Assembly (NCBI GenBank): GCA_025558095.1
Contig: JAIVFI010000006.1
Coordinates: 845,728-909,727, forward strand
Length of the DNA stretch: 64,000 nt
Reading direction: 5' to 3'
From: Hyaloraphidium curvatum SAG 235-1
Taxonomy: Eukaryota; Fungi; Monoblepharomycota
Below, piece by piece: positions 6,610 through 64,000 of the stretch. The notes beneath the pieces were generated by a model. It did no database searches. It saw only the letters and a program-made list of their open reading frames with translations, and was not told where the DNA came from. Each line of letters opens with the position of its first letter. The stretch's first letter is position 1. The position numbers were made by a program, and so were the translations under genes.

Positions 6610-6841
6610 TGGCTGGTTGCGGCCGGGCGCCGACCGCCACGGTACCAGAAGCGGATAAGGTGAGAGTGCTCCGGTGTGGCCGAGGCGCCGCCGAGGCTGA
6701 CTTTCCGACCTCTCGGCCGGCATCGCTTGAACCCGTCCGGACAAGGCCAAGCAGAACATTCGCCCTCGACGGCGCTGCTCGACCGCGTCTGAATCAGTCC
6801 TTTGGAGACTTCTGACCTGAAACCGGCTGCGGACCGCCGAC

Positions 6842-27525: not shown

Positions 27526-27569
27526 TCCAACACGATCGCCCCGCCCCCATTCCGTTGTCAACCATCGCG

Positions 27570-43180: not shown

Positions 43181-43384
43181 TGCGGTGCTATTATGTGGCA
43201 TATGTGTTGCTTGTATATGGCAAATTACAGTAAGCTGTCCCCAACACGCGTCCCAAGCAGGCAACGAGGGCGGCCGCCTCCGATCGCGCTCCAATTGGCA
43301 GATTAGGTCGATAGATACACCGCATAGCAGGATTCCCGGCACCGCCGACCCCTGCGCGCCCGTCCGCCCCCGCACCGCGACGCC

Positions 43385-45058
43385 TCACGCGTCCGGCGGC
43401 GCCACCATCGTGTCCATCCTCACGCTCTGGTAAATGCTCTGCCCCGCGCCCCTCAGCACCGCCCCCAGGAACTGCCCGTAGTCCGGCCGGACCCCTTGCT
43501 GCGCCGCGAACGGGACCACGTGGAACTCGGCCTCGGGGATGCCTTTGACGTGCTCGGCGAACAGGGCCTCGGTGTTGCGGGTGTACCGGTCCAGGGAGAG
43601 GAAGAGGTACGTGCGGACGCGCTGCACGGACATGAGCTGCGAGAGGAGGTCGCGGTACATGGGGGGGGCGATGCCGTTGGGGTCGGGCTATCCGGGAAGA
43701 AACGGGGGTCAGCGGCGCACACGGAGGCGGGGAAAGGAGACCCCACTATGTGGTCGTGGTACCACCGGTCGTTGGCCTCCCCCGAATCGCGGAACCGCCG
43801 GCCGTGCGGTGGCGCGTCGCCGACGTGCACCAGCACGCGGACCTGGTTCCGCCACGAGAGCTTCGTCGCCTGGCACGCGTGCGGGCGTCAGCCGGATAAG
43901 GGCAGCGGGGGAAAGGGACGCACCTCGCGCAGGCCGCCGAGCACGTCCTCGGCGAAATCGCTCCCGTACCCGCCCCTGCACGCCACCCCCTCCAGGAACC
44001 CGCCGACCTCCTCGGGCGTCCCAAAGTCCCGCACGAAATACGTCGGCACCCCCCTGTCGTCGAAGTCCGTGTACCCGACAAAGGCCATGCGCACGGCGAC
44101 GTGCGGGTACTCGGCGCGGAGGTGCCCGAGGAGGTCGCGGATGGCCTGGTGCACGAAGCCGAGGTAGGTGCCCATGGAGGAGGTGCAGTCGACCATGAAG
44201 GCGATGTCGATTTCGAAGCTGGAAGGGGGGCAGGTGGTTTCCAAGGGGTGGCCGGTCGCGGGGGGAGGGGGGGCCGGCCGGACGCGGGGAGATGGGAGGG
44301 CGGCAGGTCAGCGGCTGAAGGCATCGGGCGGCACGGCGCCGGATTACCTGCTGGCGGCGAAGGACGACAGGTTGTTCATGATCCTGTAGTCCCTCAGCGC
44401 CCTCTCGAGGAAGCTCCTCGCGGCGCCGGGCGCCATCCCGCCCACCGCGCGCTTGATCGCCGAGATCTCGGCCCTGAGCTCCCCGGCGGGCACGTTCAGC
44501 ACGGTGGCGAGGTTCTCGCCGGCGCCGAAGCCCTCGGCGCGCGAGGCGGCGATGTCGTCCCAGCGCGCGCGGTCGGCGGCGAGGGCGGCGGAGAGGGCGG
44601 CGCGGGGGAGGCGGGGCGGGGGGGCGGAGGTGATCGGGTACTGGGCACACGGGTGTGATCAAGCACGGCACACGGGGCGACGGCGGGAGGGGACCCACGA
44701 GGGTTGCGGCCAGCGCGGCCTCGAGCTCGTCGGCCCTCGCGAGAACCTCTGCAGCGTCCGCGTCCATGGCGGCCAGGCTGCCGACGATGTTCCTGTTTTT
44801 GGCTGCGGCCGACAGCCGCTGCACGGCCTGCAGCACGGCGGCCAGCCTGCCCACGCCGGCGCCGACCTCCGCGGCGGTGGCGGCGTCCAGCTCGCCCGCT
44901 GCGGCGACGGCGGCCGACGCCTCGCGCACGGCCGACGCGCACAGCTCGGCGAGCTCCGAGAGCGCGGCCTTGACGGGGAGCTGCTTGGTCGAGCGGCCGA
45001 TGAGCGAGGAGAGGTTGGAGAGCGAGCGGAGCATCTGCGCGGGCGACGGCGCGGCCAT
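43385..45058 (-). CDS. N-terminal helical (MLKL 4HB-like) domain + vWA domain of the alpha-kinase-associated type, spliced
   Basis: IDIAFMVDCTSSMG (MIDAS), AFVGYTDF, GGYGSDFAEDVLGGL, VLVHVGDAPPHG; amphipathic helical N-terminus. Confidence 0.8.
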
Positions 45059-45153
45059 CGCGGGGGCGGCGCGGGGGGACGGCGGGAGGGTGGGGGGCCC
45101 GGAGGCTGGTAGGCCCCGCAGAGCCGGCGGGGGAGAGGAGGGGTGCGGCGACC

Positions 45154-45190
45154 TGACTGACTGACTGACTTTCGGGGAGGGGAAGGGATT
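45154..45190 (-). promoter_or_regulatory. AATCCCTT-N13-(GTCA)4 motif in the 158-bp gap between divergent genes
   Basis: Same motif as upstream of both LRR-kinases, in the same orientation relative to the vWA gene. Confidence 0.5.
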
Positions 45191-45216
45191 GCGCACGGCA
45201 CAGCTCCCGCGTCGAA

Positions 45217-48200
45217 ATGGACGCGCTGGAGGCCGAGCTCGAGCGGCTCCTCGGCGATGCGGCTGCGGCGGCCGCGCTGCCGCTTGTGCTGCGCGATGGG
45301 CCCGGCGGGCGGGAGGCCGCGGCCCCGCCGGCGGTGCGTCGCCCCCGATCCCCCGCCCGCCATAGCTGACCATCTCAATCCGCCCCTCCGCCGCCTCACC
45401 CCCTCTCCCCTCGACGCAATCGTCCTGCTGCATGTTGTGTGTGCGCGATCGGCCGGTCAGAACCGCGAGTTCCACGCCGTCCTCGCCGCGCTGGCCGACT
45501 GGCAGCTCCGCGCCGCCGCCGCCGACCCGGGCGACATCGCGACCCCCGCCGGCCTCGCCGCCCTCGACAGGATGTCCGCCCTCGTGGACGCCGCGCTGGA
45601 CGCCGCGGAGGCGCTCGAGAGCCTGAAGGACGGCAGCGGCGTGCAGGTGGTGCTGCAGCGGCTGGCCACGGTCGGCAAGACCGCAAGCGCGCAGGGGGTG
45701 CAGCAGGTTGCCGGCGCCGCCGCCAGGCCCCCGGAGGACGCGGTGCCCGCGCAAGAACCTCCGGTGGCCGCCCAAGTCCCGGCCCCGGCCCCGCACCCCC
45801 AACCGACCCCGGAACCCGACCCCGACGCCCCCCCCGCCCCCCCACCCCGCGGCTCCTCCGCCTCGCGACGCACCCCCCGCCCGCTCCCCTCCCCACCCCT
45901 CCCCGCCCCGCAACCCCCCTCGCCCACCGACGACGCCCCCCCCGCCCCCCCTCCCCGCTCGCTCACCCCGCCCTCCGCCCCGCCCCGCACGCCCACCGAC
46001 CCCGCACGCACGCCCACCTCCCCCTCCGTCGGCCTCCCCTCCTTCCCGGACCCCGAGCCCCCGACGCCCATCGCCGACGCCCCGGCGCCCCCGCCGCGCT
46101 CCGCATCCCCCTCGCACCTCGACCCCGCCGCCGCCGCCGCGCTGTCCCTCGCCCGCGCGAGGGACGCGCAGGCCAGGCGCGCCGCCTCGCTCGCCCGCCA
46201 GGCGGCCGAGCAGAAGGCCGCGGGGGAGGAAGCGAGGCGGAGGGAGGAGGAGGAGATCGAGAGGAGGGCGGTGGCAGCGAGGAGGGCGAGGGAGATGCTG
46301 GCCGCCGAGCTGCCCGCCGTCGCCGCCGCGGAGGGACCGGGTGGGGGGGCGGCGGAGGCGCGGAGGAGGAGGATCGAGGAGGCGAAGAAGGCCGCGGAGG
46401 AGGCGAGGAGGGCGCGGGAGGAGGAGCGGAGGAGGGCGGAGGAGGAGGAGGTGGAGCGTGCCCGGGTCGCGGAGCAGGAGAGGGTCGCCGAAGAGGCGCG
46501 GAGGGACGGGGAGGCACGCGCGGCCGAGTACGCGCGGATCGCCGAGGACGCGCGGGTCGAGCGGGAGAGGCTGCTTTCCGAGGAGCGGGCGCGGGCGGAG
46601 GAAGAGAGGCGCAGGGCGGAGGAGGAGCGGATCGCGGAGGAGGCGCGGTTGGAGGAGGAAAGGATACGGGTGGAGGAGGAGAGGAGGGAGGAGGAGGAGA
46701 GGTTGGCGGAGGAGGCGAGGAAGGTCGAGGAGGAGAGGTTGAGGAGGATCGAGGAAGAAGCCAGGATCGCCGAGGAGAAGCGCCTGGCGGAGGACAGGCG
46801 CCGCAAGGAGGAGGAAGCCCGCCGGGCGGCGGAGGAGGCAAGGCTGGCCAGGATCGCGGAGGAGGCGAGGATCGCCGAGGAGAGGCGGATCGCGGAGGAA
46901 GCCCGGCTGGCGAGGATCGAGGAAGAAGCGAGGATCGCCGAGGAGCAACGGCTGGCCGACCAACGCCGCCGCGCGGAGGAAGCACGCAAGGCGGAAGAGG
47001 CGCGCAAGGCCGCCGAGGAGGCCAGGATTGCGGAGGAGAAGCGGATCGCGGAGGAAAGGCGCGTGGCGGAGGAAATGCGCCTCGCGGAGGAACGGCGCCT
47101 CGCGGAGGAGGCCAGGATCGCGGAGGAACGGAGGATCGCGGAGGAACGCCGGATCGCGGAGGAACGACCGGTCGCGGAGGAACGGCGCGTCGCGGAAGAA
47201 GCCCGGATCGCCGAGCAGGCACGGATCGAGCAGGCGCGGATCGAGCAGGCCCGGATCCTCGAGCAGGCGCGCCTCGCCGAGGAAGCCCGCCTCGCCGAGG
47301 AAGCCCGCCTCGCCGAGCAGGCGCGGATCGCCGAGGAGGAGCGGCTCTGGGTGGAACAAGAGACCCGCCGCGCCGCCGAGGCCGAAGCCAGGCGCAGGGC
47401 CGAGGCCGCGGAGCAGCTCCGCCAGGCCGAAGTCGCACGGCGCGCGCAGGAGCGCGCGGAGGAGGAGGCGCGCGTGGCGGCGGCGGCGATCGCGGCGCAG
47501 GAGGAGCGGCGCCGCCGGAAGGAGGCGGAGGAAAGGGCGGCGATGGAACGGGCGGCCGAGGCGGAGAGGGCGAAGGAGGAGGCGAGGAGGAGGGAGGAGG
47601 AGAGGTGGAAGGCGGAGCAGGCCAAGCTGGCGCAGGAAAAGGCGCGGCAGGCGGCCGAGGCGCAGCGCAGGGCCGAGGCGGAGGAGCGGCAGAGGCAGGA
47701 GGAGGAGGAGACGGCGCGGCGGGAGGCGGCGGAGCGGCGGGCGGCGCTGGACGGGGCCGAGGCGGAGCGCAGGGCGAGGGAGCAGGCGGCCGCCGCCAAC
47801 CCGCCCCCTCCGCCGGAAGTGCAGCAGCTGTTCCAGGAGATCATGGCCAAGCGCGCGGAGCAGCCCCGGATGGGACCCAAGGACCAGGTGGGTTGCGACC
47901 GGCCGGCCCGCCGGTGCCGTTGCTGATTTGCGACCGCCCGTTGCAGCTCGACCAGGCGACAAACTGGTACAACCGCTCCCTGAAAATCTCCGTCCCCAAC
48001 CCGCACCTGGCCGCGCAGCTCAACGGTATGCTCTCGGGCGAGGCCTTCCAGTGGCTCCTCGCCCTCACGCAGGACCCCTCCCGGCCCCCGTTCCCGCCGG
48101 CCTCGCTGTTCCTCGCCGACGTGTACCTCTCCCGCGCGGCGGCGCAGCCCGAGTTCTTTGGCAACGCGTTCGTGCTCCTCGAGCGGGCGGCGAGGGAGAC

Positions 48201-48330
48201 GGGGGACAGGCAGTGCTGCGAGAAGGCGGCGGGGATGATGGAGAAGGGGTGGCCGGGGATGGCAAAGGACAAGAAGAAGGCCAAGGAGATCATGTCGTGG
48301 CGGGGCAAGGGGGCCGCGAAGGGCAGGTAG
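45217..48330 (+). CDS. BAG-like N-terminal domain + Pro-rich linker + long E/R/A helical repeat + SEL1-like C-terminus, 2 introns
   Basis: Introns 45334-45460 and 47888-47946 give one frame. The C-terminus CCEKAAGMMEKG..DKKKAKEI matches that of the gene at 55059-57618. Confidence 0.75.
46530..47345 (+). repeat. Coding minisatellite: R(I/L/V)AEE(A/R/K) hexapeptide (18-bp) repeats
   Basis: Recurrent CGGATCGCGGAGGA-type units. Confidence 0.85.
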
Positions 48331-48715
48331 TTGTGCTCTTGGATTTGGCTTGCGGTCGCCGTCTGCGATCCGTCGGCAGCATGACGGTTTCTAGTACGCG
48401 CTAGCTTTCTACGATAAAATAAACCGCGTACGGGAGGCCGTAGCACGTGCCACTTCTTGGTCGCGGAAAAGTCGCTTCCAGGGTGGACCCTGTTGATGGG
48501 GCACCTTCCGGCTGCCGACCCGGCCACATACCTCGGACACAAATTGGCAAGCCCGTGCGCTCCTCCTGGGCGAATAGCGGCTGCCACTGCCCGGCCTCCG
48601 GTTTAGGTCTGCGTTTGGGTGGCCGATGACGCCTGCGGGCGGCAAATCGTCGGGGGGGCGGTGCCCAGGCCGCGTCCCTGTGCGGCCCGCCCCCCGACCG
48701 GATTTTCACCGCGCC

Positions 48716-51100
48716 ATGGGGTCACCGGAGGAGGACGGCGCGCCGGGGCCCGGTGCGGACCCGCCGCCCACGCGCGCGGAGCTGGCCGCCGGCGCCGAGG
48801 CGCTGTTTGCCGGGCTGCAGAACATTGGCATCGGGCTGCACCGCGCGACGTTCGCGGAGCGGATGCGCGCGGCGCCCGACGCGCGCCGGCCGGGCAAAGT
48901 GTGGGCGCTGTGCGGGCAGCCGCTGGTGGCCGCCACGATGGGGATGCTCGGCGTGCAGCTGCCGGTGCGCGGCGGCGATCTGCGGCTCGCGGGGAGGGCG
49001 GAGGCGCACTGGCGGGCGCTGCTGGCGGGGGAGCTGGCCGCCTTCCGCGATCGCGCGTCGGGCGGGATTAATCACCGGACGGGCAACGCCGGGGGCCGGC
49101 ACGCCGCGGAGGGGCTGCAGACGGCCGAGACGCTCGCGCTGCTCTATGCCCTCGTGCTGCCCGCCTTCATGGGCCACCTCGTCGCGGGCTCGCTGCTCGA
49201 CGCCCGCCGGCTGCTGGCACACGCGGCCGACGTCGTGCGCGCCGCCGGCCTGCCCCCGGAGGCGTTCGTCGGCAACCCGCTGCCGGAAGACGCCGACGGC
49301 TGGCTGTACATGCAGCACTGGCTCGACGCCGCCTCCAACTTCATGGTCGCCGACGCCGGGTGCGCCGCCGTGGACAGGCTGCCGCTGACCGTCGACTGGC
49401 CGCGCGAGTTCCCGGGCCTGCGGCTGCGGGCGCCGCTCGTGAGGGTGGCCATGCTGCCCCCGCCTGCGCCCGGGGACCCCGCGCCGGAAGAGCTGGCCAA
49501 GCTGCTAGACGGCATCTCTTTCGGCGAGGCGTGGGGCTGGCTGGACCCCGACTCGGCGTTCTCCCCCCCGGAACCGGGCGACGAGCGGCACGCGCACGTG
49601 CTCCGCGAGACGGTGGGGAACCCGGGCCGGAACGGTTTCTTTGCCATCAGCATGATGGTGCTGTTCCTCGAGCTCCACTGGAACAGGTTCGAGGCGTACC
49701 TGGGGGATGCCGGGCTGGACGTCGTGGACCTCGTCGTCGCGGACGATTCCGAGCGGAGGAACGGGGCGGACGGACCCAACGGAGCTGAATCGAGCGCCCA
49801 TTTGTCGCCTGACGACGCGGCCCGCCTGGACGACGCGCTGCACAACCCGCGCTTCCCCGAGGCCGACCGCCGGTGGCGCTACCTGCGCTCGGCCGCCGCG
49901 CAGGTCGAGGCCGCGCTCCCTCCGCCCCTCCGCGCCGCCGAAGCCCAGGGCTGGGACGTCGACGCGTGCCTCGCCCTCGCCCCGCCGGGGTTCCCGCCGA
50001 TGTTCGCGCTGTTCCTCCTGGGGGTCGCAGCGGCGATCAAGCGCATCTCGATGCTGCTCATCTCCCCGCCGCCATTCGCGGAGCTCCTCGGCCCCAACCG
50101 CACCTCCGCCCTCTCCCGCGGCTCATCCGGCTCGGACGACCTCTCCTCCGACTCGGACCGCACCCCCTCCGTGGAACGCCGCCTCACCCTGTGGCTTTCC
50201 ACCTCGGCCTTCGCCTCCGCCTCGCGCACCGCGGCCTCGCTCGCCGCCCTCGCCCGCATGGTCGTCGGCCAATTCCGCCCGCAGCTCGCTGGGCAATCCT
50301 ACACGGCCGGACTGGACCGCGCCGCGGCGTTCGCCGCGTGGTTCTCGGTCATGGTCCTGCGCCGCTTCCCGTCGGCCTTTGCCGGCGCACCCGAAAGCGC
50401 CTACCCGGCCGCCGCCGCCCTGCACTCGGCCCTGCACGCCGACGCCCGCGCGTGCCTCGAGCTCCTGCGCACCGCCGACAGGGCGGAGCACGAGCCCGTG
50501 CGGGTGCTGCTGGGCGCGCTGCTGGACGGGGAGGAGCTCAGGTTGTCGCGGAGGGACGTGCAGATGCTCGCGCTGGCCAAGCGGGCGGTCGGCGGGAAAT
50601 GCAGGCACGGAGTGCGGGTGGGCGGGGGGGAGTGCTGGGCGTGCGCGGCGAGGGATGCGAGGAGGAGGGGTGCGGGGGAGCGGGGGGGGAGGGGGAGCGA
50701 GGTCCATCCCGTTGGGGACGACGGGAACGAGACGGCGTCTTCCTCGGAGGGGGAGCCGGAGGCGTTGGAGGACGGGCCGTACCGCCTCCCCTCCCTCCCC
50801 GAACCCGATCGCCCCCCTCCCCCGCGCCCCGCCCCCGCCGTTCCCCGGGGCATCCTCCGCCCGCCCTCCTCCCCGCCTTCCCACTCCTCCCGCTCTACGT
50901 CGTCCGGCCCCCGCGCGCCGGAGAAGCGCGTGCGGTTCCGGCCCGCCGTGCTCGTGGGCACGACGCATGCGCCGGAGGACTACCCCGCGCGGTCGGCGCG
51001 GGCGCCGTTCGAGCCGGGGTTGGAGGTCGGGTGGGCGCCGATGGCGGGGGGGCTGAAGCTGGCGGAGATGCTGGAGCAGAGGGGGGGAGGGGGGTCGTGA
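48716..51100 (+). CDS. Large helical hypothetical protein, possibly related to fungal transcription-factor middle regions; RVxF motif near the C-terminus
   Basis: Long intronless ORF with host codon usage; KRVRF..VGTTHAPEDY. Confidence 0.65.
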   Translation: MGSPEEDGAPGPGADPPPTRAELAAGAEALFAGLQNIGIGLHRATFAERMRAAPDARRPGKVWALCGQPLVAATMGMLGVQLPVRGGDLRLAGRAEAHWRALLAGELAAFRDRASGGINHRTGNAGGRHAAEGLQTAETLALLYALVLPAFMGHLVAGSLLDARRLLAHAADVVRAAGLPPEAFVGNPLPEDADGWLYMQHWLDAASNFMVADAGCAAVDRLPLTVDWPREFPGLRLRAPLVRVAMLPPPAPGDPAPEELAKLLDGISFGEAWGWLDPDSAFSPPEPGDERHAHVLRETVGNPGRNGFFAISMMVLFLELHWNRFEAYLGDAGLDVVDLVVADDSERRNGADGPNGAESSAHLSPDDAARLDDALHNPRFPEADRRWRYLRSAAAQVEAALPPPLRAAEAQGWDVDACLALAPPGFPPMFALFLLGVAAAIKRISMLLISPPPFAELLGPNRTSALSRGSSGSDDLSSDSDRTPSVERRLTLWLSTSAFASASRTAASLAALARMVVGQFRPQLAGQSYTAGLDRAAAFAAWFSVMVLRRFPSAFAGAPESAYPAAAALHSALHADARACLELLRTADRAEHEPVRVLLGALLDGEELRLSRRDVQMLALAKRAVGGKCRHGVRVGGGECWACAARDARRRGAGERGGRGSEVHPVGDDGNETASSSEGEPEALEDGPYRLPSLPEPDRPPPPRPAPAVPRGILRPPSSPPSHSSRSTSSGPRAPEKRVRFRPAVLVGTTHAPEDYPARSARAPFEPGLEVGWAPMAGGLKLAEMLEQRGGGGS

Positions 51101-51261
51101 CGGGTCGCGTCCGTTGGAGGGCGAGAAGCGATCGTGACCACGTCCCCTGTTGAGCCCCGGCTGCAATACAATGGAAACCCAACCACAGACCCGTACCAAT
51201 AGCCCCATCCGTCCAACTCCCCCGGCAGATCCAACCCCTACGCGCCGTCGTCGTCGTCCCC

Positions 51262-52668
51262 TCAAAGCCCCCTGACGAACGCCTCCACGTCCCCCGCCAG
51301 CTCCGCCGGCCTGTGCATGGCGAAAAAGTGCCCGCCCGTCGGGAACGTGGTGTGCCGGCGCAGGTCGGGGAACTTGTTGGGCAGGAACGCCCGGGGCACG
51401 CGCACGATCTCGCCGACGACGTCCGCCACCGCCGCGGGGCCGGGGATCACGGCGCGGGCGGAGAGGAGGAACGCGGCGGGATCGCGGAAGTTGGCAGAGT
51501 AGTACCGCGCCGAGGAGAGCCCGGTGCGGGTGACGTGGTACAGCGTGACGTCGTCGAGGATGTGCTCCCACCTGGCCTCGACGTCCCTGCCCTGCTCGTG
51601 CGGCGGCGCCCACGCGTAGAACTTTTCCACGATCCAGGCGAGCAGCCCCGCGGGGGAATCGTCCAGCGCCGCGCCGATCGTGCGGGGCTTGGTGGCCTGC
51701 TCGTGGAAGTAGCCCATCTCCTGAAGGATGTAGAGGTAGAATGCGCCCACGGTCTTGTAGCGCCCGTTGTTGGTCAGGCGGTCCATGTCGTCGGGCGTGG
51801 CGATCCAGCGGCCGAGGGAGAAGTAAACCGCGGGTGCGAGCGGGCCGCCGAGCCACCAGGGTCCTTCGAAGCCGAAGAGGAAGTTGACGTGGGTTCCGAT
51901 GAGCTTGAACGCCGGTTGGGCGTCCTGCGCGACGAGCTGCGCGATGGCGGCGACCACCCCCGAGCCGTAGTCGCCGCCCTGGGTGACCACGCCGCCCGGA
52001 TGGGGGCCCAGGTGCACGAGCACGTCGATGAAGGTGCGCGCGGCATCGACGAAGGAAAAGTCGTGCCGGTGCGGCCGGGTGCCGGGGCCGAAGCCGGGGA
52101 GCGAGGCGACGACGACGCGGAAGCCCTTGGAGGCGAGCATCGGGCCGGCCTCGGCAAACTCGACGAAGGAGCCCGGCCAGCCGTGCACGAGGAGGGCGGT
52201 GGGCGTGGAGGCGTTTGCGGCGGGGGGGTCGATCACGACGCAGTGCACCCAGAGGCCGCGGGCGCGCACGAGCACGTGGCGACCCATCGCCTGAAGGGCA
52301 ACCCTCCTAGAAGGCCAATCGTAGTCGTCGAGCCACTTGCGGACCCATTTTTCGAGGCTGGCGCGGGGGGCGCCCAGCCCGGTCCACCCGTCCTCGTCCT
52401 GCCCGACAGTGGATTCCGCCCGGGCCAGCCACCGCTTGAGCTGGGCCTTGAGGTCGTCGACGTCTCCTAAGGGTAGCTGGAAATCCACCACCGTGCCCTC
52501 TTTGGCGTCGCCCGGATCGCCGTGCAGCATCGTGCCCGTCCACACCCGGCGGTCTTCGGGGTCGCGCGGCACCGCCGTGTGCGGCGGCGCGGACAGCACG
52601 CGCGGCAGCACGCCGACGGTGATTGCGGCGAGGGCGCCGAGCGCGGCGACGACGGTCAGCGGGCGCAT
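51262..52668 (-). CDS. Microsomal-type epoxide hydrolase
   Basis: N-terminal anchor; YDW; LLVHGWPGSFVEF; SLPGFG; QGGDYG; DSPAGLLAWIVEKF; GGHFFA. Confidence 0.93.
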   Translation of the reverse strand: MRPLTVVAALGALAAITVGVLPRVLSAPPHTAVPRDPEDRRVWTGTMLHGDPGDAKEGTVVDFQLPLGDVDDLKAQLKRWLARAESTVGQDEDGWTGLGAPRASLEKWVRKWLDDYDWPSRRVALQAMGRHVLVRARGLWVHCVVIDPPAANASTPTALLVHGWPGSFVEFAEAGPMLASKGFRVVVASLPGFGPGTRPHRHDFSFVDAARTFIDVLVHLGPHPGGVVTQGGDYGSGVVAAIAQLVAQDAQPAFKLIGTHVNFLFGFEGPWWLGGPLAPAVYFSLGRWIATPDDMDRLTNNGRYKTVGAFYLYILQEMGYFHEQATKPRTIGAALDDSPAGLLAWIVEKFYAWAPPHEQGRDVEARWEHILDDVTLYHVTRTGLSSARYYSANFRDPAAFLLSARAVIPGPAAVADVVGEIVRVPRAFLPNKFPDLRRHTTFPTGGHFFAMHRPAELAGDVEAFVRGL

Positions 52669-53006
52669 TTGGACGCGATGCGGAGGGGGAGACGGTCGCG
52701 CGATGGTTCCCGGACGCGAACTGGCGGCAAACCCTGACGCGACTCGAGTGCGACTTGCCGCCAACGGCAACGTCTTGTATCCTACGATTTTTGCCGGATG
52801 GCAACATCGCCTTCGGTCTGTCTTGCCATAGGTGGCATTGGCGGGTAGTGGCGGGTAGGGGGAGGGCGCAACGCGGGACGGGGCCGCCCGACTCGTTCGG
52901 GTACTCTCAAGCGCCCAAAGCGCCAAGGCATCCGTGTATTGAGTCCATGTTCCCCATGGGTGTGCAACCATCCATCTCCACGAGCGTAACCCCTCGCACC
53001 CCCCAA

Positions 53007-54843
53007 TCACGCCTGCTCCGAAAACACCAGCGCGTCCGTGCCGACCGTCGCTGGGACGCTCGTGCACTTCCACCGGGTCCCGGCCCACTCGGCACCCCCC
53101 GACACGGGGACCACCGCCCCCGCCGCGTCCGAGCCGGCCGGCATGTCGGCCGTCCTCGCCCACGCGCCGGCGGAGGCGGCGTAGAGCCCGGAGTTGACCC
53201 GTCGCAGGCGTCGATCGCCAGCACGCGGTCGCCGGCCGAGAGGGGGACGTTGTCCGCGGTCGGGAGGCCGGATGCGGGCCCGGGGAAAACGGGGGTCAGG
53301 AGCGGCGAAGGCGGGGCAAAGTTCGCCAACTCGACGGTGAGCAGCTTCGGGGCGAAGGAGGCGTCGCCGTACGCGGAATCCAGGGGTGTGTCCGGCGCGG
53401 CGAAGGCGTTGTTGCCGGCGTACAGCCCGCCCGCGGGGGTGCCCAGGGTCCCGGCCGCCGAGGAGGTGAAGAAAAGGGCACCCTTCTCGGCACCAGAGGT
53501 GCGGGAGCCGAAGGTGTTGCCTTTTGCGTAGAGGAGGTTGAAGAAGGAGAGGGGCTCCACTCCGGACGAGCCGGCGAAGGGTTCGGGGACGTCTTCGGAA
53601 GAAAAGAGCGCCCCGGCGGCGGCGTAAAAGAGGCATGGGGACGAGGCGTACGGTACGGAAAAGTCGTTGTTGACGAGGTAGAGCGAAAACTCGCCGCCGT
53701 TGCCCGGGTTTCCCACCGCGCCGGGCTGCCTGAACATGCCGGTGGCATCGAGATACACCCGCGGTGCGCCGGCAGAGGTGATCGAGTTGCCAGAAACGAC
53801 GAACTTGCCTTTCCACCCCGTGGTATAGGAAGCCCCGCGCGGGCCGGCGGCGTTGAGCGCGAGCCCGATGAGGCGGGACGCCTGCGACGGGGCGACAAAG
53901 GTGTTGTCGGCCGCGAACGACTCCCCCGTGCTGCCGTAGGGTGCCAGCGCCCGGATCGTGGCTCCAGGTGTGTCGCTGTTGGGATTGAAGGTGCATCCGC
54001 GCACGACCCAGGAGGCAGCGTCGATGCTGACGCCCATCTTGGGGTAGGTAAAGGTGCAGCCCGCGATGTAGATCCCGGGCGATCCGTCCGGCGTGGCCTC
54101 CTGCATCGTGGCGGCTGTGATGCACGCCGACAGCCCGTTCGCGTCGCCCGAGGCAACCTGATAGTTGGCAATTTGGAGGTCGTGGATGTAGACAGGGCCC
54201 GAGCCGGGCGCGATGGTAATCACGGAAGTGAGACTGTCGCGCCGAACGATGCAGCCCGACCCCGTGCCGAAGATCTCCAGGCTCTTGGAGACGGAGACCG
54301 CCGCGCCCTCGACGATGGTCCCCTCGAGCACCTGGATCCGGTCCCCCGGCGACGCGGCGGCGACGGCGTCCGAGAGCGTGGCGTAGGTGCCGCCCGTGCC
54401 GGCGGTGATCAAGGTGCCCGTGAAGCTCGGGGGCGAGGGCATCGCCGACACCGCCACGCACGGGTCGTGGAGGAACCTCGCGGCGACGGGATCCTTGTCG
54501 GGCCCGGCGTACCGCCTGTAGAGAGACCGGAAGTCTTCCGAGTCGCCATAGTCGACGCAGGCGACGGAGCCTTGCGGCGCGTCGGGGAAGGAGAACTCGC
54601 TGCCGGGCGGCGGTCAGCTGCGGGCGGCTCGCGAGGCGAATAACCCCACCAAAACATTCCGTCGTCGCACTCGCTGCAGCTGCGGCTGAAAATGGCGCGT
54701 CTGCGGGGGAACGGTTCAGCGCGGGCGGTGACTCCGCGGCGCGGGACCCACAGGGCGGACGGGGCTGGCGCGGCGGCGGCGGGCGGCGCACACTCAAGAA
54801 CTGCGTGAAGTAGGCCCAGCAAGGCCACCGGAAGGATTCTCAT
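53007..54843 (-). CDS. Secreted beta-helix (pectin-lyase-fold-like) protein with a phage tail-fibre-like C-terminal module; 1 intron and a 1-nt frameshift near 53199
   Basis: Signal peptide; intron 54600-54649; YATLSDAVAAASPGDRIQVLEGT. DNVPLSAGDRVL continues in another frame as VNSGLYAASAGAWARTAD..VGTDALVF. Confidence 0.7.
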
Positions 54844-55058
54844 CTGGGGGAGCGGCGCGATGGCGCACGATGGGGGAAGTGGGGTGGTGACTCCGTGGGC
54901 CTTGGGAACGGCGCGCATATCGGACCTCCAGCCGCCGGCCGGATCCTCACTCGGACGGCGGGGCTATTCGTACAACCGAGCGACCCCCGTTCCATGCCAA
55001 GACCCATCCCCGATCCTTCTCCAGCCCTTCCCGCTACAGTCCCGAACCCCGTTCGCAA

Positions 55059-57618
55059 TCACCGCCTCGCCGCCTTCTTCCGAAAGTCCGGGCTCCCCAG
55101 CCCCTTCCACTTGCGTATCTCCTTGGCCTTGAGCACGTCCGGCCGCACCCCCTCCCCGCGCTCGTACATCCGCGCCAGCTCCTCGCAGCACTCGGGCTGC
55201 CCCCTCTCCGCGCCCACGTTGTACAGCGCCAGCACCGTCTTGAGCTCGTTGTCCTTGCGGTACGCCTCGGCCAGGTAGCGCACGGCCTTGATCGACGGGC
55301 CGCGGTCGTTGTACACCAGGTCCGCGAGCCACCTGAACGCCGCGTCGCGGAGCGCCTCGATCAGCCGGTAGAGGTCGCGCGAGGGGCGGCCGGATGCCTG
55401 CTGCAGCTCGTTTGAGCGGTCGATCCACGATACGGCCTGGAGGTACTGCTCGTCAGGGGGCATGCGCGCGCGGCGGTGGCCGAGCTCGGCGATCTCGTTA
55501 AGGCCCTCCTCGAGCTGCCAAGCGAGGGTGGTCAGACGCCAAATCGGGCAGGCGGAGCGCGGACAAACCATCGCCTTTTCGTCCACCGCCTGCTCGCCCT
55601 CCCCGCCGGCATCCGCCGCCACCTCCACCGGCTCCCCCAGCGCCGCCGGGGGATGCCCCAGCGACGGCACGGGCGACACGGGCGACGGCGGCTCCCTCGG
55701 CGGCACGGGCGGCCCCGGCCTCGGCGCCCCGCTCGGCGGCCTCGGCGGCGGCGCCGGCGCAACGCTCCCGGGCCTCGCAGCCAGCGCCCCGACCGCCTGG
55801 GGCGGCACGGGAACCCCGCTACCCGGCCTCCCCCTCGCGCTCAGCTCCGCCTCCAATCTCCGTATGTTCTCCTCCCGCGCCGCGATCTCCCCCGCACGGC
55901 GGGCCTCCTCCTCCTTGGCGGCCGCCACGAGCGCCGCCAGCCGGCGCTCCTGGTCCTCCAGCGCTTCCAAATAGGGGTCGCGGGATTCCGGCAGGGCGGG
56001 GGTGACGTTGAGTGCGGGGGGCGTGGAGCGGGGGAAGGTGCTCGCGCCGCCAGCGGGGAGAACAGGGTCCGAGGTCCAGGCAAGGTCGCCCGAGGGTGGG
56101 GGCAGCGCGGCGTCCGATGTGGCGGAGCGGCGGGTGGGGGGTGGGGGTGCGGGGCCGGGGAAGAAGTCGGAGGCGGTGCGGGTGACCGGATAGCCGGAAC
56201 CCAGGGGGGGTGCGCCGGGGGAGCTCGGCGAGGGGGGGCGCAGGCCGCCTCCGGGGTGCGCGTAGGCTTCCATGTCGGAAGTTGTGCGGTGGATCGGGTA
56301 GCCTGCGCCGGGGCCGCCGGCGGGGGGGAGGCCGGGGAGGACGACGCCGCCGCCCGAGGGGCGGGGCCGGGGAAGGTAGACGTCCAGCGGTTCGCCCGGC
56401 CCCGGTTGAAAGCCCACCGCCTGGCCGTTGAGCGGAGTCGACTCGACCCGCACCCTCACGTCCTCGACCCTCCGCCGCGTCTCGTCCAGCCGACGCCGGT
56501 CGGCTTCGAGCTTGGCCTGCTGCTCGATCTGCGCGCGCACCTCGTCGTCGCGCCGCCTCCGTTCGTCCTCGGCCCTCCGCCTCAGCTCTGCCCGCCGGGA
56601 TTCCTCCTCGGCCCTGCTCCGCTCCTGCACGTCCCTGACGAGGAGCTCCTCGATCTCGGCCTGTTGGCGTTCGCCCTCCCGCGCCGAGTGCTGCGACCTG
56701 CGCTCCCTGTCCAGCCGCTGGTCCAGCCCGATGGCGCGGAAGAGCAGGTCGTCCCTCCGCGTCTCCAGCGGGCGGTCGCCCGGGTCCAGAACGAGCGCCT
56801 GCAGCCGCGCCTGGGCGCCCGCGATGTCTGCCACGAGCCGGAAGTACGGCTCGTTGGGCGGGACCCGCGGCAGGTCCGGGGAGAGCGAGCCGCCGTCGAG
56901 CACCTCGAATGCCAGGCGGGGGAGGGCGCGCAGGCGGCGGTCGAGCTCGTCGAGCTCCGAGGCGAGGATGGCGAGGGAGGTCTGCGCGTCGAGGGCCGGC
57001 AGGGAGGCGGAGGGTGGCGGAGGGAGCGGTGCCCCGGGACCAGTGTTGGGGCGGGCCGGCGGGGGCCTCGACGGGGCGGCGGGCGGCACCCGCGACTGCC
57101 CCCGCAGCGGCGCGACCAAGTTGGCGAGGAACGATGTCCGCGGGGCCGCCGGGGTGGCGGGCGCCGACTCCTCTGCGACGGCGGCGGCGAGGTCGTCCTC
57201 CTTCTTGGCGGCCAGCACATCCAGCAGGGACGCGGCCTCGGCGGCGAGCATCAGCCGCCGGTCCGCGAGGTCGTCGCCGCCGCCGGTCGCGCTCTCGGCC
57301 TGCGCCTTGATGTCCTGCAACGCGCGCTCCGCGGCCTTGAACGCGGCGTTCTAACCCGACGCCACCAGGCCCACGCGGCCCGCGCAGAACACGGTTTCAA
57401 ATCGATATCAAATCGAGGCAGAAAAGATATCCCCGGGTCAAAAGGGAGGGGTTAGGAGGAGTGAGACGTCACAGGGACGGCCTCGCGGTGCCCACCTGCT
57501 GCGCGCCCGACACCTGCCCGCCCTCGAACGCCAGCCGCGTGCGCCGAAGCCGCGGCAGCTCCGTGTCGCGCACCGCCGCCAGCCGCGCCTCGGCACGCCG
57601 CACCGCCGCGTCCGCCAT
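55059..57618 (-). CDS. Two BAG-like helical domains + coiled coil + Pro-rich region + SEL1-like repeats, spliced
   Basis: Intron 57351-57495 links MADAAVRR.. to NAAFKAA..; C-terminal LARMYERGEGVRPDVLKA. Confidence 0.75.
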
Positions 57619-57793
57619 CGCGCCCCGCGGTTTGCTGGGTCCGCAGTCCCTTGCACGCGCTCCCTGCCAAAGCAGGCTGTGCCCGATCGTGCCATCCGTC
57701 CGCTGCATTACCGACGCGGGCAACGCCGCAAGGAGCCGAAAGCGTCCGTGCGACGCGACGAGGGGCACGGAGTCCATTCTTCGCCATCCGCAT

Positions 57794-60278
57794 TCACAGC
57801 CTGGCCTCCAGCGCCTGCAGCCGCTGGTACACCTCCGGGAACCGCGGCCTGTCCTCCGGCCTCTCCTTCCAGCAGTCCTCCATGATGGCCCACAGCTCCT
57901 CGTTCGCGCCCTCGGGCTTGCTCGGCCGCTTGCCCTCCACCCGGACCAGCTTCATGATCTGCGCGGGCGGCGGGGTCGTCGGATGCGGCGGGCACGGCAC
58001 GATGGGGAGGACCCACCATGGGCTGGTTGCCCCTGGCCTCGTAGAACGGGAAAAGGCCCTTGCTCACCACCTCGTACGCCACCATCGCGAAGGCGTACAC
58101 GTCGGCCGGCGGCTTGAGTGACTGCGTGTACAGCTCGGGCGCCTGGCGGCCAAAGATGGATGAGCGCTCCGACCGCCCGCACCACCTCCCAGCCGAACGA
58201 ACCATGAAACCGGGAGTCCCGCCCCACCCCTGCCCCGACATGGTCAGCGCCACCCGGTCCCTCAGCCTCGACATGCCGAAATCCGTGATCAGCGCCCTCC
58301 CGTCGTCCACCAGGATGTTGTACGCCTTCAAATCGCCGTGTAGCACCGGCGTCGGGAGCGAGTGCAGGTAGGCCATCCCCAGCGCGACCTCCTTGAGCAG
58401 CTTCACGCCGATCTTGAGGTCCCAGTTGCGCTTGGAGAGGTACGTGCGGAGGTTGCCCTCCCGGACGAGCGCCGAGATCATCATGGGAGGGTCCTCGCAG
58501 TAGGCCATGAGCGGCAGCACTGCCCCGCGGGGTCCGTCAGTCGAGGCACACACCCCCCCGCCGCGACCGACCCACCGTGCTTGTGCCGCAGCTTCTGCCA
58601 TATCCGCACCTCCTTCTTGAAATCCGCCCGCGTGCGCTCGTCCACGTTGCCCTTGATCACCTTGACCGCGACCTCGTTGAAGTCGAACAGCACGCCCTGG
58701 TACACCACCCCGAACCCGCCCGCGCCGAGCTTCTGGGTCTCGTCGTAGACCACCTTGGACGCCTCGATCCGCAGGTCGTCGGGCTCTTCGGAGCGGGGGC
58801 CGGAGCCGCCGGTCGCGGGGGTCGGGGGGGTCGCGGGGGAGCCGCCGGCGCCGGCGGGGGAGCCGTGCCGGTCCGGCTGCGGGGGGTCGGGGGAGATGAG
58901 CATCACCGGGGGGGAGGCCGGAGGGACGACCACGGGCCGCCGGACGGGCGGCGCGGGGGGCGGGTACGCGGGCTTGGGGGGGAGGGCGGCGGCCTGCGCG
59001 GCGGGGGCGTCGTCGGGCCGGGGGCGGAGGTTGGCGGGGGCCGCGGCAGGTGGGGGGATGAATTGCTGCGGGGGGCGGAAGACGGGGGGGTGCACGCGGG
59101 GGGCGGGGATCGGGGCCGGCGGGCCGTCGATCGGCGAGAAGGGGAGCCCGGCGGGGGGCCCCTGCTGGAGCGGCATGGGGATCGGCGCCGGGACGGGCCC
59201 CGCGGCGCCGACGACGGGCGACTGGGGTGGTACCGCCTCGTCCGACTTGCGGTCGTCGACCTTGCGGTGCCCAAAGATGTTGCCCAGGCCGCCAAACAGC
59301 TTGTGGCCGCCGGCGGGCGCAGGCTTGTCCGGGCCAGCGTTGTTGCCCCCGAAGATGGCGTTCCGCTTGGCGGCGACGTTGCCAGTGGCAGGGCGGCCCG
59401 CGGCGGGGGCGGCGGGAGGGGGAGGGGATGCCGGCCGCTGTACCTCGGGCTTCGGCACGTCCGAGAGGCGGTTGGCCGCCGGCGGCCGGGGGATCTCCGG
59501 CTGGGGAATGTTGGAGTACCGGTTCGGCCACTGCGGGGGCACGGCCGGTGACGGGAGCAGCGACCCCTGCGCCCTCTGCTGGCCCGCGGGCGAGGCGGGA
59601 ACCGGGCTCCCCAAGTCGCCGCCCGAACCCACCCGCCCGAACGGTGTCCCCCGGTGTTCAGCCACCACATCTGGGACCAGCACCGGGGAGGCGTTGGGCG
59701 GGTCCGAAAACACGCGGTAGATGTTGCGGCCGTCGGGCGCCTTCGCGGGTTGTGCGTCGGGGTGCAGCGGCGGGCGCGGGTTGCCCCGCGAGATCTCGTA
59801 CTCGTGCTCGACGCGCGAGTTGAGCTTGTCGAGCAGGTCGGTCGAGCGCTCCATGAGCGAGTTCCAGCGGTCGAAGAGGGTGAACTCGGAGATGGGCACG
59901 TCGAGCGAGGCGATGGACGCCTGGATCTCGCTCAGCTGCCGCCGCACGGTGTTGAACGACACGTTCTGAATAAGTGGAGGGTTTTGGCGGGGCGAGTTGG
60001 GGGGGATCCGGGCCGATGGGGGCGCGATGGGGGGTTGCGGGTCGGGGCCAGAGCGGGTTAGTGGGGGACGGCGGGCGGCCCGCGCCACCCACGTTCGGGT
60101 CGTTTGCCGGGAGCTCGCCCTCGAGCGCGCCGCGCAGGTCGCTCGGCAGCGACAGCGGCATCGTCAGCGCCTCGGGCACGGCATGGCGCGAGAGGGTGTC
60201 CAAGTGCGAGTCGAACACGTTGATCTGGCTGACGACGCTCGCCAGAGCGCCGTCCTGGCTGTCGGAGTAGTCCGACAT
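57794..60278 (-). CDS. BAG-like N-terminal domain + Pro-rich linker + TKL protein kinase, 4 introns
   Basis: LGAGGFGVVY, VAVK, HGDLKAYN, DFG, APE, DVYAF; first intron 59966-60092. Confidence 0.88.
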
Positions 60279-60487
60279 GGCTATCGGCGCGGGGCGGAGG
60301 GGCCCGGAGGCCGCCGGCGCCGCGGGGGAGGGGGATGACGAGCGGTCTCGGTCGGCGCAGCGGCGCAAGACCCGTGCCGCGGCGCGCACCGATCTCGCTC
60401 GTCGAAACACGGGGACCACAAAACATGGTTCGGAACGTTTCATTGCCATCGGATTTCGACGATCTCGGTGTCGCTTGCCGGGATTCG

Positions 60488-62637: not shown

Positions 62638-63876
62638 ATGGCGGCAGCGCTGTCAGCAAGCGCTGTCAAGCAGACCGAAGTTATCTCGATCGAATCCGGG
62701 GCCGCGATGCCCGAAGCCGCGAAGGTCCCCCAACCCTCCGCCGGACCCCCCACTCAGGGACCCCTCGCCGCGCAGCCGACCGAGGCTGAGGCGGCCGTGC
62801 CGACCGCTGCAACCGCGCAGCCTGTCGCACCCGCCAGCGCAGCCGCCGCAGCCGCCGCGCAGGCCGGGGCTCCCGCCCCAAACGCCGCCACCGGCGACCG
62901 CCGCCCGGTTGCGGGCCCTACGCTGCCCCCCGCGCAGCCCACCTACGCCGCGACTCTCAACCCGACGTCGCGTATCATCTCCTTCGCCGCACCTGCGACG
63001 GCCATGTCCCTCCTCGAGGAATCGCACCTCATGAAGTGCGGTGCTCCCGCGAAGCTCCCCGACTCCGCCTTCGGCGCGGGGGCGCCATACCTACCTCGCC
63101 TTCACGATGCGCCCATGGTAGCGCTTGACCTCGGCAGGGGCCCTGAGAACATGTCCCTCCACATGGCGCAGAGCCTCGTGGGGCCGGTGCTGAAAACCTG
63201 CCTTGGCGTGGCCGCGGACGCACGCTTCACCTGGGTCGCCAAGCTGCGATTCGGGCCGAACGGGTACCCCTGGTTGTACCTCATCCCGACGGAGGGCTCG
63301 CCCGCCGACCGGGATCAGTTTGTCAAGACTCTGGAAGATCAGAAGTTCCTGCCCATCAAGCTGCGCTCCGGCACGGACTGGAGGATCCGCATCGTGAAGA
63401 CGCTCCGGGAGCACGACCTTCTGGTGCATCTCTACGACTACTACGGGCCACAGAACCCGGCCCAGACGACGTTCTTCCAGTGGCTGACGGCCAACCTCTC
63501 GGCTTACATTCACCACCCCGTGTCGGAGTACCGCTTTGAGGAGCGGGCCGCACCCGCCGGCAACTGCGATCGCCTCTCCTTCGTTGTCCACTGCGAGAGT
63601 GCGTACGATCGCCTGATGGTTCTGCAGTTCCTCCAACACGGAGATCGTTTGTCGATCCCGTACGAGTTCGACGAGCTCGGACGCCCGGTCGGTCCTACCT
63701 TCCCAGTGCGCGTATGCTATGACCACTTGGAGGAGCGGATGCCGAAGTTCACGTTGGGCAACAAGTCTTTGGGAGGCACCAATGGCCGCCAGCTGCCCCG
63801 CGAGAGCGCGCCCCGCGAGACATCCAAGGCTCCTGTTGCCCCCGCCGTAGCCCCCACCACTTTTAGGTTAGGTTAG
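62638..63876 (+). CDS. Intronless ORF resembling a retroelement ORF1 (tandem RRM-like fold), truncated by the telomere
   Basis: Ala/Pro-rich N-terminus, two beta-alpha-beta-beta-alpha-beta patterns, codon usage unlike host genes. The frame ends TTT AGG TTA GGT TAG inside the telomere. Confidence 0.5.
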   Translation: MAAALSASAVKQTEVISIESGAAMPEAAKVPQPSAGPPTQGPLAAQPTEAEAAVPTAATAQPVAPASAAAAAAAQAGAPAPNAATGDRRPVAGPTLPPAQPTYAATLNPTSRIISFAAPATAMSLLEESHLMKCGAPAKLPDSAFGAGAPYLPRLHDAPMVALDLGRGPENMSLHMAQSLVGPVLKTCLGVAADARFTWVAKLRFGPNGYPWLYLIPTEGSPADRDQFVKTLEDQKFLPIKLRSGTDWRIRIVKTLREHDLLVHLYDYYGPQNPAQTTFFQWLTANLSAYIHHPVSEYRFEERAAPAGNCDRLSFVVHCESAYDRLMVLQFLQHGDRLSIPYEFDELGRPVGPTFPVRVCYDHLEERMPKFTLGNKSLGGTNGRQLPRESAPRETSKAPVAPAVAPTTFRLG

Positions 63877-64000
63877 GTTAGGTTAGGTTAGGTTAGGTTA
63901 GGTTAGGTTAGGTTAGGTTAGGTTAGGTTAGGTTAGGTTAGGTTAGGTTAGGTTAGGTTAGGTTAGGTAGGTTAGGTTAGGTTAGGTTAGGTTAGGTTAG
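63863..64000 (+). repeat. Telomeric (TTAGG)n array, about 27 copies, with one TAGG variant near 63968
   Basis: Tandem TTAGG runs to the end of the window, with the G-rich strand pointing outward. Confidence 0.97.

What the first reader, a model, noticed from the sequence alone, without database searches (positions are those of the whole stretch)
45334..60092. Three genes share a long intron with a distant branch point at the same codon of a shared domain
Seen: introns 45334-45460 (+, 127 nt), 59966-60092 (-, 127 nt) and 57351-57495 (-, 145 nt) are all phase 0, length 3n+1, and sit immediately before the Asn of N-x-x-F (NREF, NVSF, NAAF). Each has a consensus branch site (GCTGAC, ACTAAC, CCTAAC) at intron position 35-44, as in the ordinary 50-60 nt introns here. 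It is then followed by an AG-free stretch, placing the acceptor 91, 92 and 101 nt from the branch A. The primary sequences are dissimilar, so the geometry appears conserved. Known: a long branch-to-acceptor distance slows the second splicing step and underlies spliceosomal cleavage of fission-yeast telomerase RNA. Inference: a conserved splicing switch (retention, first-step-only cleavage, or trans-splicing between family members) controlling assembly of this domain.
Basis: partly seen in the sequence, partly recalled or inferred. Interest (0 to 1): 0.75.

Follow-up and report, generated by a model that had tools for sequence, protein, structure and literature searches.

The report
Long-tailed introns in fungal gene cluster
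Four neighbouring genes near a chromosome end of an early-diverging aquatic fungus each carry a spliced intron about twice the usual length, likely because the stretch between the branch site and the intron's end grew by local duplications, which makes this a real but probably ordinary case of distant-branch-point splicing rather than a switch tied to one protein domain.

Summary
The three introns are real. All three joins occur in contigs of the one available run (RNA by its spliced joints). In 35 short introns the predicted branch lies 12-27 nt from the AG; in two of the three long ones the only good branch match lies 91-92 nt away, and the third has no A in the usual zone. The genes are paralogues with a BAG-like three-helix bundle, so the shared codon is common descent. 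The geometry is not domain-specific: a fourth RNA-confirmed intron (44219-44347) in an unrelated neighbouring gene has it, and most of its tail is a 26-nt tandem repeat. A further paralogue appears, from its protein model, to have an ordinary 60-nt intron there. Tails are unstructured, non-coding and unlike each other. Best reading: likely distant branch points resolved by scanning to the first AG, spliced constitutively, arising by tail expansion in a subtelomeric cluster. A second-step throttle is not excluded; no lariats could be mapped. Earlier scan notes report similar AG-free tails in basidiomycetes (unchecked).

The parts
45334..45460 (+). Intron A, 127 nt, first intron of gene A; predicted branch A at 45369 (AGCTGAC), 91 nt to the acceptor
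   Evidence: sequence; RNA joint; branch score 10.0 bits, best proximal -4.7
59966..60092 (-). Intron B, 127 nt, first intron of gene B; predicted branch A at 60058 (CACTAAC), 92 nt to the acceptor
   Evidence: RNA joint; 6.9 bits, best proximal -0.5
57351..57495 (-). Intron C, 145 nt, first intron of gene C; candidate branch As 111, 101 (57452), 87, 57 (57408) and 46 nt from the end; no A nearer than 44 nt apart from the acceptor AG
   Evidence: RNA joint inside one 1709-nt contig
44219..44347 (-).
   Evidence: RNA joint inside one 1379-nt contig; 8.8 bits, best proximal -2.5
44250..44314 (-). 26-nt tandem repeat, 2.5 copies, making up most of the tail of intron D
   Evidence: Tandem Repeats Finder score 79; self-repeat reached in 3 of 300 shuffles
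45217..48330 (+). Gene A: N-terminal three-helix bundle, Pro-rich and Glu/Arg coiled-coil region, Sel1-like C-terminal domain
   Evidence: translation; C-terminus homologous to gene C and P0002 (z 18.3 and 22.6)
57794..60278 (-). Gene B: N-terminal three-helix bundle, Pro-rich region, tyrosine-kinase-like kinase
   Evidence: PF07714 E 1.4e-17 on the kinase exon; gene model; joints
55059..57618 (-). Gene C: two three-helix bundles, coiled coil, Pro-rich region, Sel1-like C-terminus
   Evidence: first 786 residues of public model P0001; weak Sel1 match E 0.0028, below cut-off
56661..57008 (-). Second, intron-free copy of the bundle in gene C (N-E-P-Y-F at the homologous place)
   Evidence: alignment; model pLDDT 72, three helices; fold search
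43385..45058 (-). Gene D: helical N-terminus plus a vWA-like domain (label recalled from the motif; no Pfam or PDB hit on single exons); no detectable copy of the bundle
   Evidence: model; four RNA joints; z at most 2.3 against the bundle; blank
63863..64000 (+). (TTAGG)n array running to the window end, likely the telomere; places the cluster 4-20 kb from a chromosome end
   Evidence: 27.8 copies, 98% matches

Best explanation
These are four spliced introns of 127-145 nt that likely branch at the species-typical place 35-44 nt after the donor and are likely finished by scanning along an unstructured, AG-free tail of about 90 nt to the first AG, giving normal mRNA. Shown: the joins, the branch-like sites, the lack of a proximal match, the lack of AG and of stable folding, and tandem duplication in tail D. 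Inferred: branch use, scanning, and origin. The tail between branch and acceptor likely lengthened by slippage and short duplications of C-rich sequence in a repeat-prone subtelomeric cluster, tolerated as long as no new AG appeared. A, B and C likely inherited one such intron from a duplicated gene, and D likely acquired its own, so two events would suffice.
For: RNA joins for all four, with the bins inside introns A and D at depth 0 while contigs join across them. In 35 short introns (9 RNA-confirmed, 26 predicted) the branch lies at 34-46 in 33 and 12-27 nt from the end in all; the lowest leave-one-out score is 2.3 bits, whereas the best proximal site of A, B and D scores -4.7, -0.5 and -2.5 and C has none. 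Tail MFE z-scores 0.23, 0.56 and -0.29 for A, B, C; no Rfam match; no coding signal. Tail D is largely a 26-nt tandem repeat; self-repeats were reached in 21, 46, 13 and 3 of 300 shuffles for A, B, C, D. Two predicted introns show intermediate steps: a 64-nt intron with a (TC)n run after the branch (27 nt) and an 83-nt intron with a long C run (37 nt). C/G runs of 6 or more are 2.67 per kb in the cluster against 0.7 in the first 43 kb. Paralogue P0002 has a 20-residue insert that begins with V and ends with Q exactly at the intron site, as a read-through 60-nt GT..CAG intron would give.
Against: A, B and C1 are very diverged (19-20% identity to the C2 copy; A versus C1 not significant pairwise), yet all keep a long tail, and three of the four lengths are 127-129 nt; pure drift in a genome of 50-66 nt introns might have shortened some. 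Self-repeat evidence is strong only for D. A predicted 235-nt intron in the same window has an ordinary proximal branch, so lengthening is not confined to tails. In Cryptococcus, branch-to-acceptor distances over 50 nt were described as possibly too large for the second step (10.1101/224170, section 9). The tree of six domain copies is unresolved, so a single origin for A-C is assumed, not shown. The P0002 and P0004 readings rest on protein sequence only.
Confidence: 0.55

Rival explanations
1. The long tail is kept by selection as a throttle: it slows the second step so that part of the transcript is discarded or retained and degraded, tuning these putative signalling genes, perhaps by condition.
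For: Long tails persist in three very diverged paralogues and a head-to-head neighbour, at similar lengths. Retention would truncate every protein: stop codons inside introns A, C and D, frameshift in B. [quoted passage not shown] Human exons with large AG-free zones are more often alternatively spliced (PMC1431707, passages).
Against: Only spliced forms were assembled, C and D inside long unbroken contigs; no shared motif or fold among tails; a paralogue seems to do without. One run, one condition, and contigs lose rare forms, so this is weak.
Confidence: 0.2
2. Productive splicing uses a weak or mid-intron branch nearer the acceptor (A runs 16-21 nt from the end in B and D, TTTGAT 57 nt from the end in C); the consensus site at 35-44 is a relic of a shorter intron or gives unproductive early branching.
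For: Two of the 9 RNA-confirmed short introns have weak branch matches (2.3 and 2.4 bits). B and D have A runs at the usual distance, and C's best-scoring site is 57 nt from the end. Early branching in longer introns is reported in C. neoformans and S. pombe (10.1101/224170, section 9).
Against: Proximal scores of A, B and D are 2.8-7 bits below the weakest short intron, C has no proximal A, and the upstream sites are near-perfect in A and D and at the exact usual distance from the donor. No AG lies between, although use of a downstream branch would free the upstream part from that constraint.
Confidence: 0.17
3. The tails are former or optional coding segments: an alternative proximal acceptor, lost in A-C but used in the P0002 gene, adds about 20 residues to the loop between helices 1 and 2.
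For: P0002 carries 20 extra residues at this site; tails of A, B and D are open in the downstream frame, and that frame scores best of three in A, B and C.
Against: Coding scores of -0.13 to -0.21 bits per base lie below the 5th percentile of real coding pieces (0.01) and in the range of ordinary introns; C's tail has two stops. The P0002 insert begins with V-S, as a GTNAGY donor would read. The intron-free copy C2 needs no such segment.
Confidence: 0.05
4. First-step-only cleavage or trans-splicing between family members assembles or withholds the domain.
For: Same codon and phase in three paralogues would keep chimeras in frame; long distance is one of two features behind S. pombe TER1 cleavage (PMC4299874, passages).
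Against: Cis joins are what was assembled; no exon 1 to foreign exon 2 joint is among the 15 listed of 22 joints or the 5 of 5. TER1 also needs a branch site fully complementary to U2; none of the four has TACTAAC. Intron D is outside the family.
Confidence: 0.03

Closest known systems
Vertebrate distant-branch-point introns with AG exclusion zones (Gooding et al. 2006, PMC1431707; passages read)
   Same: Best branch match at the 5' end of an AG-free zone, none near the acceptor, pyrimidine-rich unstructured spacer, first AG used; zone size kept between homologues without sequence similarity.
   Different: Here the whole intron is only 127-145 nt and the branch keeps the normal distance from the donor; tails are C-rich rather than U-rich; no alternative exon or retention seen; branch not mapped.
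Saccharomycotina distant-branch introns, COF1 and UBC13 (Gahura et al. 2011, PMC3239191; abstract and sections 14-15 read)
   Same: Fungal introns with over 60 nt from branch to acceptor that splice productively; conserved intron position does not imply conserved distance outside the genus.
   Different: Yeast spacers fold into stable stems and hide silent AGs; these tails of A, B and C fold no better than shuffles and none of the four holds an AG, which fits scanning instead.
Early or distal branching in Cryptococcus neoformans and S. pombe (bioRxiv 10.1101/224170; passages and section 9 read)
   Same: Short-intron fungi in which longer introns branch far from the acceptor.
   Different: There these are side events that may stall; here no good proximal site exists and spliced mRNA is assembled.
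Spliceosomal cleavage of S. pombe TER1 (PMC4299874; passages read) and spliceosome-mediated decay of BDF2 (as described in 10.1101/224170)
   Same: Long branch-to-acceptor distance.
   Different: Those release exon 1 as product or for decay; here ligated mRNA of protein-coding genes is found and the branch sites are not perfect U2 complements.
BAG domain (Pfam PF02179)
   Same: Predicted three-helix bundle; BAG structures among the top fold matches (4hwi_B Z 9.6, rmsd 4.2, 88 aligned; 4hwh_A Z 9.5, rmsd 2.3, 79 aligned); Atlas neighbours at 0.82 and 0.79 carry BAG.
   Different: No Pfam BAG hit; unrelated helical bundles score as high; both results are leads only.

Membership tests
Distant-branch-point / AG-exclusion-zone intron | Branch point more than 40 nt from the acceptor | not testable with these tools
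   Needs lariat reads. Predicted at 91, 92 and 89 nt for A, B, D; at least 44 nt for C if the branch is an A.
Distant-branch-point / AG-exclusion-zone intron | No AG between the predicted branch and the acceptor | tested here: met
   all four introns; each alone P 0.02-0.25 by shuffling.
Distant-branch-point / AG-exclusion-zone intron | Best branch match at the 5' end of the zone and none in the usual place | tested here: met
   A, B, D clearly; C has no proximal A but rival sites 46-111 nt from the end.
Distant-branch-point / AG-exclusion-zone intron | First AG downstream is the acceptor used | tested here: met
   RNA joints at the first AG in all four.
Distant-branch-point / AG-exclusion-zone intron | Alternative or regulated splicing (frequent, not obligatory) | tested here: inconclusive
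   Only spliced forms in contigs of one run; contigs drop rare forms.
Yeast structured distant-branch intron | Stable stem between branch and acceptor | tested here: not met
   Tail z-scores 0.23, 0.56, -0.29 for A, B, C; expected unpaired bases 38-53 in the four tails. C folds to -33 kcal/mol but no better than shuffles.
Yeast structured distant-branch intron | Silent AGs inside the spacer | tested here: not met
   None.
Spliceosomal cleavage substrate (TER1 type) | Branch site fully complementary to U2 snRNA | tested here: not met
   AGCTGAC, CACTAAC, TCCTAAC, CGCTGAC; none is TACTAAC (consensus recalled).
Spliceosomal cleavage substrate (TER1 type) | Released 5' exon is the main product | not testable with these tools
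   Contigs cannot show RNA ends; ligated mRNA is present.
Nested, recursive or twin intron, or hidden micro-exon | Internal AG acceptor (and internal donor) at a spliceable distance | tested here: not met
   Only internal AGs are at positions 31 (A), 13 (C), 32 (D), none in B; C and D joins are contiguous in the contig records.
BAG domain | Pfam PF02179 match | tested here: inconclusive
   No hit on exon pieces, the intact C2 copy inside the exon-2 translation, P0001, P0002 or P0004; Atlas neighbours are a lead only.
BAG domain | Three-helix bundle fold | tested here: met
   Single-sequence model, pLDDT 72, helices 8-28, 54-71, 76-115; fold not specific to BAG.
BAG domain | Binds the Hsp70 nucleotide-binding domain | not tested
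   Outside the question; no job sent.

The most novel reading that the evidence does not exclude
An early-diverging fungus with tightly sized 55-60 nt introns uses mammal-style scanning over unstructured 90-nt tails, and a subtelomeric cluster of signalling genes keeps such tails, twice independently and at nearly the same length, as a second-step checkpoint that sets how much full-length protein is made.
Probability: 0.15. Interest if true: 0.62.

Novelty: new member of a known kind. Interest (0 to 1): 0.3.

Why it matters
If lariats confirm the branch sites, these are compact natural substrates showing that a short-intron fungus completes the second step over about 90 unstructured bases, a distance thought to need a hairpin in budding yeast and to be near prohibitive in Cryptococcus. 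They would also show how introns can grow on the 3' side of the branch. For annotation, branch searches limited to the last 30 bases would miss them. The larger claim, a domain-linked splicing switch, is not supported.

Tried and rejected
No whole genome is held, so no genome-wide survey. Run search: one holder, X1, not on record as RNA; its spliced joints show that it is. Depth differences along gene A (about 7-9 at the 5' end, 145 further on) cannot be read from contigs and were not used. Homologue searches: none for C exon 2, self only for P0002, 3 proteins for the six-row profile, 5 hits in the representative library of which P0003 and P0005 are repetitive and were dropped as chance. Two metagenome scans found no DNA for a homologue (503 and 234 pattern matches, none confirmed). 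Atlas search with the C2 copy gave no usable hit. No Rfam family in 43000-61000 at E up to 1. No copy of the tails elsewhere in the window beyond short C-rich matches, so no sign of a local mobile insert. Twin, nested or recursive introns and micro-exons rejected for lack of an internal AG. U12-like words in intron C (ATATCTTT after TCCTAAC; consensus recalled) are in the wrong order for a nested minor intron. The first gene-finding run diverged and was replaced. Long-intron candidates dropped: 43637-43746 (RNA shows 59 nt), 12048-12176 (open frame, one Pfam match across it), 29307-29504 (open frame), 43076-43230 and 6660-6745 (no gene context) and those in low-scoring opposite-strand models. 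The domain tree had no supported branch. The vWA label of gene D got no Pfam or PDB support on single exons. Literature: no paper on nuclear branch-point geometry in this lineage among the listings; searches returned nothing; the library lacks most subscription papers and no supplements were read.
Full report
Source. The window is high-GC eukaryotic DNA with short introns. A public protein model whose first 786 residues are gene C is labelled Hyaloraphidium curvatum, an early-diverging aquatic fungus (Monoblepharidomycetes, placement recalled). The window ends in 27.8 copies of TTAGG, likely a telomere, so the genes in question lie 4-20 kb from a chromosome end. No genome was held.

The observation. 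Introns A (45334-45460, +), B (59966-60092, -) and C (57351-57495, -) have the stated lengths, phase, flanking N-x-x-F, branch-like sites at positions 36, 35 and 44, and AG-free tails of 91, 92 and 101 nt. One public run, X1, holds the region. Its contigs join across B and C (15 of 22 joints listed) and across A (all 5 joints listed). C lies inside one 1709-nt contig with contiguous record coordinates; for A and B the tool marks the letters between as not known, though for A the 476-nt record is accounted for by the upstream piece, 84 bases of exon 2 and a 23-base adapter end. The bin inside intron A has depth 0. Contigs show presence only, so rare retained or cleaved forms would be missed.

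Is the branch really distant? I trained a branch model on 35 short introns picked from the window (9 RNA-confirmed, 26 from high-scoring gene models). The best site lies at positions 34-46 in 33 of 35 and 12-27 nt from the end in all 35 (the search range was 9-32); the lowest leave-one-out score is 2.3 bits. C has no A nearer than 44 nt to the end apart from the acceptor AG, so its distance must be abnormal if the branch is an A, but four rival sites at 46-111 nt outscore the named CCTAAC (215 of 3000 shuffles); the model saw one CTAAC example and under-rates it. AG-freedom alone says little here: 103 of 6985 AG-to-AG gaps in the window reach 90 nt.

The shared domain. Exon 1 plus the start of exon 2 of A, B and C align with each other and with a second, intron-free copy in gene C (B-C1 z 6.8, A-B z 6.7, A-C1 not significant, all linked through P0002 at z 3.6-20). 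The intact copy is predicted as a three-helix bundle that resembles BAG domains among many other bundles; the Atlas gives BAG as a lead and Pfam gives no hit. A and C end in homologous Sel1-like domains; B ends in a kinase. The genes are therefore paralogues, and an intron at the same codon is ordinary common descent.

The geometry does not track the domain. Gene D, head to head with gene A and without a detectable bundle, has an RNA-confirmed 129-nt, phase-2 intron at 44219-44347 with CGCTGAC at position 40 (8.8 bits; 22 of 3000 shuffles), an 89-nt AG-free tail and a best proximal site of -2.5 bits. Conversely, P0002, a full-length paralogue of A and C on another contig, aligns with B's exon 1 up to the intron site and then has 20 extra residues beginning V-S and ending Q directly before N-A-R-F. 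The simplest reading is a 60-nt in-frame intron left in the gene model, that is, an ordinary intron at this codon; an exon piece from an alternative acceptor is the less likely alternative. A metagenome homologue, P0004, starts M-L-T ten residues before Q-N-D-A-F, as a gene call starting at a branch motif 32 nt before the acceptor would. Both are inferences from protein; two scans found no DNA. Of six introns of 80 nt or more that I accept in the window, four (A-D, RNA-confirmed) have long tails, one predicted 83-nt intron has 37 nt and one predicted 235-nt intron has 18 nt.

What the tails are. Those of A, B and C fold no better than shuffles, and none of the four resembles another, matches Rfam or looks coding. 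Pyrimidine content (0.59-0.74) brackets that of ordinary tails (0.67). Tail D is largely 2.5 copies of a 26-nt unit; C has an exact 9-nt duplication; A and B have weaker C-rich periodicity. Two predicted introns elsewhere in the window carry a (TC)n or long C run just after the branch, with tails of 27 and 37 nt. Long C or G runs are about four times denser in the cluster than in the first 43 kb.

Mechanism. Shown: donor, consensus site at the normal distance, no AG, ligation at the first AG. Inferred: U2 binds the upstream site, the first step forms a normal-sized lariat loop, and the acceptor is found by linear search, the model described for vertebrate distant branch points (PMC1431707, passages). 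This differs from budding yeast, where such spacers fold into stems and hide silent AGs (PMC3239191, sections 14-15). The tails likely grew by slippage and duplication, with selection only against new AGs; one event before the A-B-C duplications and one in D would suffice, but the tree is unresolved. Against pure neutrality: very diverged paralogues keep long tails, and three lengths are 127-129 nt. Retention would truncate all four proteins, and distance affects spliceosome-bound intermediates in other fungi (10.1101/224170, passages and section 9), so a throttle remains possible (0.2). TER1-type cleavage needs a perfect branch site as well and yields free exon 1 (PMC4299874, passages); nothing here points to it. 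PMC7969005 (abstract only) describes a distant branch near a donor that enforces mutually exclusive exons; no such exon pair exists here.

Novelty. Distant-branch introns with AG-free zones are a known class. I found no paper on them in this lineage in the searches. Earlier notes of this scan report longer AG-free tails in basidiomycete genes (unchecked). Verdict: real feature, new member of a known kind, switch not supported; interest 0.3.

Noticed in passing
window 63863-64000: Pentameric (TTAGG)n array, 27.8 copies, running to the window end: likely the telomere, with the repeat unit best known from insects (recalled). A paper search for this repeat in this organism returned nothing.
   Followed up: partly
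window 25811-28522 (-): Intron-free 903-codon frame with reverse-transcriptase-like motifs (GIPQGG..SP..ANL, LMDD) that recall Penelope-like retroelements, with no obvious endonuclease at its end (label recalled; no Pfam hit at E 0.01).
   Followed up: partly
window 59228-59888: X1 holds contigs with many letter differences from gene B at depth 119.5 beside exact ones: a close paralogue of gene B likely exists elsewhere and would be the best comparison for intron B.
   Followed up: no
window 44965-45332: One contig runs from inside gene D's first exon through to gene A's exon 1: the head-to-head genes, 158 nt apart at their start codons, may have overlapping 5' ends; strand cannot be told from contigs.
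   Followed up: no
window 53007-57618 (-): The public model P0001 fuses gene C with the next gene downstream; the window shows a stop codon at 55059-55061 ending gene C.
   Followed up: partly
window 40955-41037 (-): Predicted 83-nt intron with branch at position 46 and a long C run after it (37 nt to the AG): an intermediate form of the long tail.
   Followed up: partly
window 24181-24415 (-): Predicted 235-nt first intron of a zinc-binding dehydrogenase gene with an ordinary branch 18 nt from the end.
   Followed up: partly
window 45148-45171: (GACT)n run between genes A and D, giving several CTGAC words in their shared upstream region.
   Followed up: no
window 62682-63302: The telomere-adjacent reading frame is covered by low-depth contigs with many letter differences, suggesting a multi-copy subtelomeric element.
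   Followed up: no
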